From assembly GCA_002425325.1 (NCBI GenBank), contig DIMA01000007.1, positions 1 through 61,181 on the forward strand: a stretch of 61,181 bases of DNA, in the 5' to 3' direction. This DNA is from Bacillales bacterium UBA5578. Lineage in GTDB: Bacteria > Bacillota_I > Bacilli_A > RF39 > UBA660. Within the stretch, counting starts at the first letter, position 1. Each line of letters starts with the position of its first letter. Shown one piece after another: positions 54,001 to 57,000 of this stretch. The position numbers are program-made.

Positions 54001-57000
54001 TCCCCTTTGTTAAGCATGTATACTATCATATTTTTTAGTAAAATGCAAATTTGGGGTAAAATTACACAAACTAAATTCTTGCACTCATTAAATTACTAGA
54101 AGAATAATTCTTTAATCCTTTATAAAATATAGCAATTGCCATACATAATATTAATGTTGTAACACCTAATACAGCTAATAATCCAAATACATTAAAATCA
54201 TTTAAAACTTGTACAGGAATATAATTAGCAAAACCAATTGGAATTAATGTATAAAATAAAGTTTTAACAACTCCTTTAAATATACCTTCTGGGTATGTAG
54301 CAAAATTTACCATTAAAGAATTTCCTGTATCTGCTAACATTTCAGTATTATTAAACCAGAATGCTAAAGATCCATATATAATTGCTATACTTGTCATTAT
54401 AATACCACCACATATTATAAATAATGTAAATAATAAAAATGAACTAATTGATATATCACATATGAATAACATAATATATCCGTAAATTAAATCACCTAAA
54501 GCACTTGCTTCAACATCTGATGTAATTACAGATAATAAAATATTTTTAGGTTGAATAATACTAGCATCTAATTTTCCCGTATTAATAATATCAGATAAAG
54601 AGAAAACTCTTTTAAAGAAGAAGTGAGAAACACCATAGGTTCCAGCCGCAAATCCCCATAATAATAATACTTGTTTGAATGTATAACCACCGATATTATC
54701 TTTAAGAGAATATAATATAACCCATTGTAAGATAAAAGAAGCATTATTTAGTAACATAAATATAATATTTGTAATAAATGTTGTTTTATTTAACATTTGA
54801 CGCATCAACCCGTATTTAATAGATAATAATGTTACTTTAATTTGATTTTTAACCACCGTTAACATTTAATCTTCTCACTCCTTTCTTATAAACTAATGAA
54901 CATAATAAATATGCTACTAAAATATATATAAATTGTGCTACAAAAATACTAATGCAATCATTTATATTAAAATTAACAAATAATTTAGCAGGTCCATATG
55001 AAACAACATATATTGGACTAAACTTTAAAAATGGTTGAACCACATTAGGAAAATATTCTATTGGAAATATAACTCCAATTACTAATATAAATTTAGAATA
55101 TAACCAATAAAATGGACTAGAATCTTCTATAAAGAAAGAAAATAAACCAATGAATATAGTAAATAAAGAACTAATAACAACCGCTAATATAGAACTAATT
55201 AAGACTAATACTAATTCTAAAACATTAGTTGTAGGAAAATTCCCCATCATAACTAACCCTAAAATTAATGCTAAAACAGTATAAATAATTCCTTTAACTG
55301 TAGCTGTACCTAAATGACTTGCTAAAGAGTAACCGATATAATTATATGGTTTATTAATATTGTATGCTATATTCCCTCCTCTAACATCATTACTAATCTT
55401 TCTACATAGAGTTCTTCCCATACATGCACCCCATATAATTTCAGTAATAATAACATACCAAATCATTTGATCTACACTATATCCATTAATAATTTGACTA
55501 GAATCACTATATATATAATGCCATAAGTTAAAGAAAATAAATAAAATGATACCACAACCAATGAAACCAAATACTAAATTAAATAAATATTGTAATTGGC
55601 TCATTAATTCTGATTTATATATATATAAATATTTTCTCATTTTAGTTACCACTCTTATATATATCACTAATAATATTCTCTAAAGGAACATTAGAAATAT
55701 TAATATCAACTATTTTATCAGGATCTAATAACTTAATAGCATCACCAACAGTTCTTTTAGTAGTATCTACTTCTATTTTTAAATTGTATCCTTTATCTTT
55801 TAATATAGTAATTCCTTCTTCATCATCTAAATTAATTTTTTCTTTCATTTTAGCTTCAACTATCTTCTTATTTAAATAATGATATTTTAAATTATCCATA
55901 GAATCATCTAAAACAATTTCACCGTGATTAACAATAATAATACGTTTACATAATTTTTCTATATCTCCAACATCGTGACTAGTTAAAAATATAGTAGTTT
56001 TATATTCTTTATTCATTCTTTTAATAAATGTACGAATATTTTCCTTTACTACAGGGTCTAATCCTATAGTAGGTTCATCTAAGAATAATATTTTAGGTTT
56101 ATGTATTAATGAAGCAGCTATCTCACAACGAATTCTTTGACCAAGTGATAAATTTCTTACAGGAGTATTTATAAACTCACTTATTTCAAATAACTCTACT
56201 AATTCATTAATTCTTTTTTCAACTACACGTTCATCTAAATCATATATGGCACCAAAGAACTTAAAGTTATCATATGGTGTTAAATGCATCCATAATTGTT
56301 CTTTTTGACCAAATACCGTACCAATTTCATATGCTAATTGTTTTCTTTTACGACGAGGATCAATACCCATTACTTCAATCTCACCTTGATCTGGATATAA
56401 AATACCTGTTAGCATCTTAATTGTTGTACTTTTTCCAGCACCATTTGGTCCTATAAAGGCAATCATTTCACCCTTATCTACTTCAAAGGAAATATCATTA
56501 ACAGCATTAATTTTTTTATACTTTGTTTTAAACATACCTTTAATACTACCAATTAATCCTTTTTCTTTTAATTTAATTTTAAATGTCTTTTTAAGACCTT
56601 TTACTCTTATTGCTTTTTCTTCATTCATATTTCTCTACCTTTCCTTTCTATTATACAATATTATTTTCTTCTTGAATACAAAAAAGAGCCACATTAACTA
56701 TGTGACTCCGTAAAAACGTGTAGGTGTTTGCCCCTATGTAGCTCGGTAATACCTTATACATACTCACTAAAATATTATAAATATGTCGTATTAATACTAC
56801 CAAAACAAAATAAAACACGCAGCACTAATAAATAGTGACTCCGTGTTTTTTATACAACGTGTAAGTTAATAACCCTATGTAGCTCGATATAAAAATATCT
56901 TATACATACTCACTCGACACGTTTAATATATAATAATTTTTTTAAAAAGTCAAATTATTTTTCAACCAGTCTATTTATCATCATAGCACTAGGTATATCT

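What a model noticed while it worked through the whole genome (the two positions that open the first line are those of the whole stretch)
56699..56917. New four-way-junction riboswitch candidate, in tandem, ahead of an ABC exporter and of GNAT/HD/S51 detox operons
A 75-nt structured RNA with no Rfam match stands twice in tandem in the leader of an ABC-2 exporter operon (C14, minus strand) and once, with a fully compensated stem, ahead of a GNAT-HD-peptidase S51 operon (C17:7186-7261); its 3' strand overlaps an intrinsic terminator. It reads as an ON riboswitch of gut Bacillota that senses a toxic small molecule and switches on export and modifying enzymes. New would be an undescribed riboswitch class and its ligand.
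Evidence so far: No Rfam hit at E<=5 or <=2. 61 aligned copies: 95% of cells paired, 10 of 20 pairs with two-sided changes, 0 of 500 shuffles as high, slid controls 27-49%; invariant junction bases GUGAGUA, UA, AGCU, ACA, GGAGUCAC. In 88 copies from 77 loci the 3' end forms the terminator stem in 80; 12 loci tandem. A model finds it in 14 of 19 genus and 19 of 60 family genomes and a third own copy; records include Clostridia too. Of 77 loci the next gene was the same ABC ATPase in 43, otherwise GNATs, methyltransferases, S51/S66 peptidases, HD, MFS, nucleotidyltransferase-like. The C17 copy has GAGAUA/UAUCUC for UAUGUA/UACAUA.
(Added by a program. Inside this text positions count along the whole contig: contig position 1 is position 1 of the stretch shown here. 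"Call 12" and the like, gene names such as g00115 and contig names such as C1 are that model's own, and its searches are not shown. The text may have been shortened before it was handed on; [...] marks where a part breaks off. The agent that wrote the report below was given it as the finding of a first reader that could run no searches.)

Follow-up and report, generated by a model that had tools for sequence, protein, structure and literature searches.

The report
Pocket-sized alarmone riboswitch variant, in tandem
Two copies of a small folded RNA sit in front of an export-pump operon, each overlapping a predicted transcription stop signal; they are a cut-down relative of the known ppGpp riboswitch and likely switch on export and detox genes when a starvation-alarm nucleotide binds, but no ligand has been tested.

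Summary
The RNA is real but not a new class from scratch. It is a shortened ykkC subtype 2a ((p)ppGpp-type) aptamer, 58-106 nt. A model built only from it finds 19 of 23 known-type natA ppGpp leaders end to end. A model of those leaders ranks the genome's three copies first, two of them barely above noise. Every published ppGpp-contacting base has a counterpart. The P1b/L3 docking arms are gone and the P3-P0 linker is 3 nt, a length reported to bind (p)ppGpp poorly, so class membership fails and the ligand may differ. The operon is the natA-type ABC trio known to follow ppGpp riboswitches (56-60% identity). Covariation holds in protein-found loci (491 of 498 cells), and a terminator overlaps the 3' strand in 178 of 187 copies, so it reads as an ON switch. 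Other first genes: acetyltransferases, MccF-like peptidases and a Spo0A-like DNA-binding protein, which heads the C17 operon. The best guess is a guanine alarmone (about 0.6); pGpp or a toxin are the novel options. This scan noted the same RNA earlier on other genomes.

The parts
56925..56953 (-). Predicted sigma-70-type promoter (TTGACT, 17 nt, TATATT); start expected about 56918
   Evidence: 10 of 12; such sites are not above chance here, 6 found vs 8.4; a like site lies within 60 nt upstream of 117 of 187 copies vs 3 in a control window
56835..56913 (-). Short ykkC-2a-like aptamer, copy 1. In ppGpp-aptamer naming: P0 56913-56910/56838-56835; junction G 56909; P1 56908-56903/56881-56876; AGC bulge 56884-56882; P2; ACAC 56862-56859 (predicted guanine-pairing C at 56861); P3; GAG linker 56841-56839
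   Evidence: 69.1 bits; 28.1 bits with the canonical-only model
56807..56846 (-). Predicted intrinsic terminator 1; its 5' strand is the aptamer's P3' strand, linker and P0' strand
   Evidence: (-28.5 kcal/mol with terminator vs -11.3 for the aptamer alone; z -4.4)
56702..56767 (-). Short ykkC-2a-like aptamer, copy 2 (AGC 56743-56741; ACAC 56721-56718, predicted guanine-pairing C at 56720)
   Evidence: 70.9 bits; 20.1 bits
56679..56709 (-). Predicted intrinsic terminator 2 (10-bp stem plus U run) using the linker and P0' strand of copy 2
   Evidence: 1 found vs 0.3 expected; -22.5 vs -10.7 kcal/mol
55642..56628 (-). natA-type ABC ATPase, 328 aa
   Evidence: 56-60% identical to ATPases behind known-type ppGpp leaders
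54849..55667 (-). ABC-2 permease PF06182, 272 aa
54071..54865 (-). ABC-2 permease PF06182, 264 aa

Best explanation
The leader holds two shortened copies of the ykkC subtype 2a aptamer, each overlapping its own predicted terminator, which likely act as ON riboswitches for a guanine alarmone (ppGpp/pppGpp, possibly pGpp). Shown: the fold, the kinship to natA-type ppGpp aptamers, the overlap of the 3' strand with a terminator, and the gene context. Inferred: without ligand each terminator captures the P0' strand and transcription stops. The ligand's guanine would pair with the first C of ACAC, stack on the junction G, and have its phosphates held by the A-G of P0, the G of AGC and the GAG linker. 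This would stabilise P0 and allow read-through. Two switches in series would sharpen the response. Rel-made alarmone, raised by starvation or by toxins that leave tRNA uncharged, would then induce the exporter here, and acetyltransferases, MccF-like peptidases and a Spo0A-like regulator elsewhere.
For: (1) Model R1, built from 70 short copies only, hits 19 of 23 known-type natA leaders over positions 1-70 at 30-40.5 bits, 1 of 2 purine-gene-type ykkC RNAs weakly (20 bits) and 0 of 3 guanidine-I RNAs. (2) Model R2, built from 16 known-type leaders only, ranks the three own copies 1-3 in 73 kb and hits all 23 short or intermediate copies given to it at 14.5-37.5 bits. (3) Bases reported to contact ppGpp (A5, G6, G48, C75, A76, C77, G104/G105, plus the neighbouring conserved C49; PMC6031431, PMC9881157) align with conserved bases here. 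The last three linker bases are GAG, as in the tested natA aptamers C94 and C101. The short P3 has no internal loop, so it cannot supply the G96 that occupies the C in PRPP aptamers. (4) Same operon: ppGpp riboswitches precede natA plus two ABC genes (PMC6003355); orthologues at 56-60% identity carry the full-length aptamer, and short- and full-leader ATPases are neighbours on a tree. (5) Intermediates exist with P1b lost, a long P3 and a 5-nt AGGAG linker (L139, L193, L286). (6) A terminator overlaps in 178 of 187 copies vs 30-44 with shuffled downstream DNA; P0 stabilisation against the terminator is the mechanism measured for C101 (PMC10687018). (7) A full-length Rel is in this genome, and a RelA_SpoT match is in 27 of 27 other carriers tested (weak, since Rel is near universal).
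Against: No binding or termination assay exists. The P1b-L3 docking elements are absent from 188 of 188 copies, and in the solved PRPP aptamer this docking is said to let P1a bases take part in ligand recognition. P1 is 19-51 nt (median 28) vs 41-119 in the tested class. The P3-P0 linker is 3 nt if the invariant C-G pair forms, and natural 3-nt-linker aptamers C2, C34 and C66 were very poor (p)ppGpp binders. Three genomes carry the full aptamer before natA and the short one before GNATs, which could mean two ligands. In one search two own copies score 20 bits while a chance hit in rpsB scores 19.4. Junction invariance is partly built in, because these bases were my parsing anchors; 25 of 86 protein-found loci gave no copy. 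TATAAT is enriched between terminator and natA start (29 of 45 vs 7.5 expected), so a downstream promoter may bypass the switch.
Confidence: 0.6

Rival explanations
1. The shrunken ykkC scaffold has changed specificity and directly senses an imported toxin or a damaged nucleotide, such as an aminoacyl-nucleotide or a nucleoside antibiotic. This would make it a new ykkC subtype, as 2a-2d are.
For: First genes behind 69 copies in named genomes: 28 GNAT, 16 natA-type ATPase, 4 Spo0A-like, 2 each of S66, nucleoside phosphorylase, MFS and methyltransferase, 1 each of S51, nucleotidyltransferase, PhzF and Fe-S protein, 9 unknown. One S66 is closest to MccC/MccF-family structures (E 6.5e-105 to Ba3275, 1.6e-39 to MccF). 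MccE/RimL acetyltransferases and MccF detoxify aminoacyl-nucleotides (PMC6795089). ykkC RNAs switch ligand easily. The 3-nt linker and lost docking argue for a changed pocket.
Against: The guanine-pairing C and all phosphate contacts are kept, whereas processed microcin C is adenine-based (recalled). The GNATs match no named resistance family over cut-off. A Spo0A-like regulator as first gene and such varied cargo fit a general stress signal better than one toxin.
Confidence: 0.22
2. The RNA is a ykkC-derived scaffold that now binds a protein antiterminator, or responds only to ions or transcription speed, with no small organic ligand.
For: The aptamer alone folds no better than shuffles (z +0.3 to -0.4) and lacks the tertiary arms, so it may need a partner.
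Against: Conservation sits in the junction while all loops vary in length and sequence. I saw no conserved neighbouring RNA-binding gene among 153 first ORFs; upstream genes were not surveyed.
Confidence: 0.1
3. It is a degenerate, non-switching remnant, or a DNA-level operator or repeat.
For: A few copies are broken (L176, L268), and a downstream TATAAT is common.
Against: Two-sided changes in 16 of 20 pairs (rows pre-filtered for pairing), 491 of 498 unfiltered P1 cells, G-U 102 vs A-C 1, a coupled terminator in 178 of 187, and tandem retention in 12 of 14 genus carriers.
Confidence: 0.05

Closest known systems
natA-associated ykkC subtype 2a (p)ppGpp riboswitches of Clostridiales (C94, C101/'Cba'; PMC6003355, PMC9881157, PMC10687018)
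   Same: Four-way junction P0-P1-P2-P3 in the same register; A-G at P0, AGC bulge, ACAC, GAG before P0'; similar P1a and P2 sequences; terminator competing for P0'; same three-gene ABC operon.
   Different: No GGGUUCC/GGUCC P1b and no A-rich L3 docking loop; P1 19-51 nt vs 44-53; short plain P3; 3-nt vs 5-nt linker; P0 GUGA/UCAC vs GAGA/UCUC; often tandem; also heads GNAT, peptidase and regulator genes; not detected by RF00442.
ykkC subtype 2b PRPP riboswitch (PMC6031431)
   Same: P0 add-on helix and the same junction bases.
   Different: No P3 internal loop to supply G96; no purine-synthesis genes among 69 first genes; weak or no model hit.
Guanidine-I riboswitch (RF00442) and ykkC subtypes 2c/2d (PMC7266159)
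   Same: Shared P1/P2/ACAC/P3 ancestry.
   Different: Guanidine-I lacks P0 and R1 hits 0 of 3. 2c precedes NUDIX/HAD genes and 2d precedes EamA/TauE genes, none of which was a first gene here. I held no 2c or 2d sequences to align.
Guanidine-IV/GGAM motifs and 'mini-ykkC' (guanidine-II) (PMC7736828)
   Same: Guanidine-IV is a Firmicutes motif with a terminator; the name mini-ykkC could be confused with this RNA.
   Different: Structurally unrelated to ykkC by the paper's account; no Rfam hit here.

Membership tests
ykkC motif family (homology) | Covariance-model match to ykkC RNAs over the whole junction | tested here: met
   R1 hits 19 of 23 natA-type leaders; R2 hits the own copies and 23 of 23 short or intermediate copies given
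ykkC motif family (Rfam RF00442) | Score at the Rfam threshold | tested here: not met
   No hit at E<=10; full-length natA leaders themselves score only 46-48 bits, under the 63-bit cut-off
ppGpp riboswitch (ykkC 2a) | P0 stem with last base A and an unpaired G after it | tested here: met
   P0 pairs 3 and 4 in 83 of 83; two-sided changes GUGA/UCAC to AAGA/UCUU and ACGA/UCGU; A-G was a parsing anchor
ppGpp riboswitch (ykkC 2a) | G then C in the P1a/P1b bulge | tested here: met
   AGC in 83 of 83 (GC was an anchor); aligns with the canonical bulge
ppGpp riboswitch (ykkC 2a) | ACAC between P2 and P3 with a free first C (no G96 partner) | tested here: met
   Present in all parsed copies (anchor); P3 is a short hairpin without the internal loop
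ppGpp riboswitch (ykkC 2a) | P3-P0 linker of 4-5 nt, (A)NARG or ACGAG | tested here: not met
   GAG (3 nt) after an invariant G in 83 of 83. It counts as 4 nt only if the never-varying C-G pair does not form. Intermediates have AGGAG
ppGpp riboswitch (ykkC 2a) | P1 stem-loop of 41 nt or more with P1b, and an A-rich L3 that docks on it | tested here: not met
   0 of 188 carry either element; P1 median 28 nt
ppGpp riboswitch (ykkC 2a) | Terminator competing with P0/P3 (ON switch) | tested here: met
   178 of 187 vs 30-44 in controls; folds
ppGpp riboswitch (ykkC 2a) | Gene association: BCAA synthesis, glutamate synthase, or the natA ABC trio | tested here: met
   natA-type trio in the window and in 16 of 69 first genes; none of the other two classes seen
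ppGpp riboswitch (ykkC 2a) | Selective binding of (p)ppGpp and ligand-dependent read-through | not testable with these tools
   Needs probing or transcription assays
PRPP riboswitch (ykkC 2b) | P3 S-turn with G96 pairing to C75; purine-synthesis genes | tested here: not met
   No internal loop in P3 and no such first genes
ykkC 2c / 2d | NUDIX/HAD or EamA/TauE gene association | tested here: not met
   0 of 69 first genes by Pfam (9 unassigned); sequence models not tested

The most novel reading that the evidence does not exclude
This is a fifth ykkC subtype: a pocket-only aptamer that has shed both docking arms and shortened the 5'-phosphate side of the pocket, so that it reads a ligand no riboswitch is known for. 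The most specific guess is pGpp, with linker length tracking phosphate count (5 nt pppGpp-preferring, 4 nt ppGpp, 3 nt pGpp); the alternative is a guanine-like toxin. It would run an inducible detox and dormancy regulon (exporter, acetyltransferases, MccF-like peptidases, stand-alone Spo0A-like factor) across hundreds of gut and anaerobic Bacillota species.
Probability: 0.35. Interest if true: 0.8.

Novelty: new variant of a known kind. Interest (0 to 1): 0.62.

Why it matters
If it binds (p)ppGpp, a 58-70-nt RNA does the work of a roughly 100-nt aptamer without the tertiary docking thought to organise it. The class would grow from 105 listed examples by several hundred (about 410 stretches estimated for one strict pattern), and the stringent response would be tied directly to export and detox genes, including the still unexplained natA operon. 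If it binds something else, it is a new ligand for the most evolvable riboswitch scaffold, with natural intermediates in hand. A 2023 review says no pGpp binding study on RNA effectors had been done (PMC10112252). Either way a one-week probing experiment decides it.

Tried and rejected
Rfam: no hit. Phage origin: 7 pattern hits in viral contigs, none with the P0/P1 strands, so chance. Leader peptide: the ATG inside P1 gives different frames in the two copies and is absent from the C17 copy. Folding energy of the aptamer alone is no support (z near 0). My first unfiltered parse slipped register at the 5' anchor (159 of 192) and was redone with a fixed anchor set. Expression: only assembled contigs were available. 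RNA contigs of four runs (two studies) cover the leader and stop at 56896, 56905, 56896 and 56839, and two runs cover only the leader and the first codons of the ATPase; contigs of two runs of unrecorded kind continue across. This is a weak hint at most, with no strand, start or level. Rel co-occurrence cannot discriminate. The Spo0A-like family gave nothing in Pfam, PDB sequences or the Atlas; only the fold search placed it. Direction of evolution (full to short or the reverse) is not settled: midpoint-rooted tree, 93 of 127 proteins after thinning at 90% identity. The ATPase was found only in the own family in a 399-genome phylum sample. Literature: searches showed no description of this short form. 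The motif strings were absent from the Jagodnik supplement and from the searched Fremin and Bhatt files (files 7 and 8 not searched). The Narunsky 2024 supplement could not be read, and subscription papers and bioRxiv supplements were not searched, so a prior listing is not excluded.

Full report
Observation. On the minus strand the 330-nt gap between a dicarboxylate symporter gene and an ABC ATPase holds two similar elements, 56913-56835 and 56767-56702. The 1.2-Mb, 24% GC genome has one more, C17:7190-7258. Rfam gives nothing. The genes behind are an ATPase and two PF06182 permeases. A predicted promoter ends 12 nt before copy 1, and each copy runs into its own hairpin and U run.

Is the structure real? 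To avoid a pattern fixing the columns I fetched loci by the ATPase protein: 6 family genomes and 80 metagenome contigs. With junction anchors only and no pairing filter, 61 of these 86 loci gave 83 distinct copies. The 6-bp stem is paired in 491 of 498 cells with many two-sided changes; 24 haplotypes score 137 of 144 against a shuffle maximum of 113; G-U cells outnumber A-C 102 to 1. On a 70-row alignment (rows pre-filtered for pairing) 95% of cells pair, 16 of 20 pairs change on both sides, and slid controls give 29-45%. The anchored bases are invariant partly by construction. The aptamer alone is no more stable than shuffles, and the terminator form is 12-17 kcal/mol lower, as expected for a default-OFF switch. 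In 187 distinct copies examined, a terminator captures the aptamer's 3' strand in 178 (30-44 in shuffled controls), and a promoter-like site lies within 60 nt upstream in 117 (3 in a control window); 25 of 168 loci are tandem.

Range. A strict pattern hit 122 stretches in 19 of 64 parts of the species collection, about 410 in all. Of these, 95 parsed; of 26 others inspected, 23 look genuine and 3 are chance. Named records are mostly uncultured Bacilli and Clostridia, including Clostridium, Tissierella, Alkaliphilus and Lutispora. The model finds it in 14 of 19 genus genomes, 12 of them tandem, 18 of 149 family genomes and 12 of 150 genomes of Lutispora's class, one probably chance. It was not found on viral contigs.

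What it is. The layout matches the ykkC subtype 2a/2b aptamers with their add-on helix P0. I noted this from recall before the look-up, then tested it. Sherlock 2018 (PMC6003355; parts 1-3 of 5 read) reports 12 of 105 ppGpp riboswitches before natA plus two ABC genes. A search with RF00442 in five carrier genomes gave three sub-threshold hits directly before orthologues of our ATPase, and 23 Clostridiaceae-level orthologues at 56-60% identity mostly carry the same full-length leader. These are nearly identical to the tested aptamers C94 and C101 as listed in Jagodnik 2023 (PMC9881157; passages and supplement rows). Model R1, built only from short copies, hits 19 of 23 such leaders end to end at 30-40.5 bits (the four missed include those with long inserts), 1 of 2 purine-gene-type RNAs at 20 bits and 0 of 3 guanidine-I RNAs. 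Model R2, built only from 16 full-length leaders, ranks the three own copies first in 73 kb (28.1, 20.2, 20.1 bits; the next, a chance hit in rpsB, 19.4) and hits all 23 short or intermediate copies given.

Kept and lost. Knappenberger 2018 (PMC6031431; passages) lists the ppGpp contacts: C75 pairs with the guanine, G6 stacks on it, G48, A76 and C77 hold the 3' pyrophosphate, and A5, G6, G104 and G105 hold the 5' one. Each has a counterpart here: the A-G after P0, the G of AGC, ACAC and the GAG linker. G104 corresponds to A here, as in the S. acidophilus and natA aptamers. Lost in 188 of 188 copies are the conserved P1b and the A-rich L3 loop that dock on each other, a paired loss of both partners of one contact. 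The linker between P3 and P0 is 3 nt instead of 4-5, and three natural aptamers with 3 nt bound very poorly. Forms with AAGA/UCUU P0 have lost P1b but keep a long P3 and a 5-nt AGGAG linker, giving a graded series. On an ATPase tree the full-leader clade sits beside short-leader clades, with no direction established. So the RNA is a ykkC-family member and is predicted to work like a 2a riboswitch, but it fails two features of the published 2a class and should not be filed as an ordinary ppGpp riboswitch.

Regulon. First genes behind 69 copies in named genomes: 28 GNATs, 16 natA-type ATPases, 4 Spo0A-like proteins, and a scatter of S66 and S51 peptidases, nucleoside phosphorylases, MFS pumps, methyltransferases, a nucleotidyltransferase and PhzF. 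One S66 is closest to MccC/MccF-family structures. MccF and MccE/RimL-type acetyltransferases detoxify aminoacyl-nucleotides (PMC6795089; passages), but no GNAT here passes a named-family cut-off. The C17 copy heads a 204-aa ORF whose model matches the Spo0A DNA-binding domain (Z 10.6, rmsd 2.9, 115 of 119 residues, next row 4.8; top five Foldseek rows but E 0.2-0.6). This family is the first ORF in 13 of 153 cases. GNAT, HD and S51 follow it.

Mechanism. For C101, ppGpp stabilises the closing helix against the terminator (PMC10687018; passages). I infer the same here, twice in series. The host has a full-length Rel. Blocked aminoacylation raises alarmone through Rel (established knowledge, recalled), which would make an alarmone a sensible proxy for switching on export and detox genes and a dormancy-type regulator. 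Odds: guanine alarmone 0.6 (about 0.42 ppGpp/pppGpp, 0.18 pGpp), other small molecule 0.22, protein or ion 0.1, non-functional 0.05. The pGpp idea rests on the shorter linker on the 5'-phosphate side and on a review stating that C. difficile enzymes make only pGpp in vitro and that no RNA binding study with it existed (PMC10112252; passages); it is speculation. One caution: TATAAT is enriched between terminator and ATPase start (29 of 45 vs 7.5 expected), so a second promoter may give switch-independent expression.

Novelty. Nine literature searches and passages of PMC7266159, PMC11109978 and PMC7736828 show no description of a short ykkC form. Supplements not seen could list it. Earlier notes of this scan saw the same RNA in other genomes, one naming the ppGpp riboswitch as closest known. 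The two-way model test, pocket mapping, intermediates and Spo0A-like target were worked out here. Verdict: new variant of a known kind, ligand open, cheaply testable; interest 0.62.

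Noticed in passing
G000 C17:7306-7920 (L001:3307-3921); relatives L054, L060, L064, L067, L145, L169, L171, L252, L262: A family of stand-alone Spo0A-C-terminal-like DNA-binding proteins with no Pfam hit, repeatedly the first gene behind this RNA in small-genome gut Bacilli.
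   Followed up: partly
window 56640-56660 and 45 natA-type loci: TATAAT (often TGnTATAAT) is enriched between the terminator and the ATPase start codon, 29 of 45 vs 7.5 expected: a possible second promoter downstream of the switch.
   Followed up: partly
window 56774-56803: A promoter-like site (TTGGTA, 18 nt, TATAAT) just ahead of copy 2; only 3 of 24 tandem pairs have one, so probably not general.
   Followed up: partly
L139, L193, L203, L204, L286: Intermediate RNAs with AAGA/UCUU P0, no P1b, long P3 and a 5-nt linker, before natA-type ATPases or a GNAT.
   Followed up: partly
L024, L025, L050, L054, L064, L072, L084, L006, L134, L145, L199: Chains in which several copies of the RNA are interleaved with single genes (copy, gene, copy, gene), up to three in 1.7 kb in L084, suggesting cassette-like accretion.
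   Followed up: no
window 56913-56909 with 56865-56861, and 56767-56763 with 56724-56720: In the terminator fold the freed 5' GUGAG pairs with the YUAC overlapping ACAC, which would mask the pocket in the OFF state.
   Followed up: no
L001:1342-2964 (C17:5341-6963): A large serine recombinase gene lies just upstream of the C17 copy, hinting that this operon is on or beside a mobile element.
   Followed up: no
L224, L225, L226 vs L034/L066, L046, L088: Clostridium tagluense, Alkaliphilus transvaalensis and Lutispora thermophila each carry the full-length aptamer before natA and the short one before GNAT genes.
   Followed up: partly
window 16403-16575 (-): 6S RNA above the Rfam gathering score.
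   Followed up: no
window 52578-53951 (-): A fusion of a 5'-nucleotidase (NT5C) and an acyltransferase follows the ABC trio, then an AMP-binding enzyme; co-transcription not tested.
   Followed up: no
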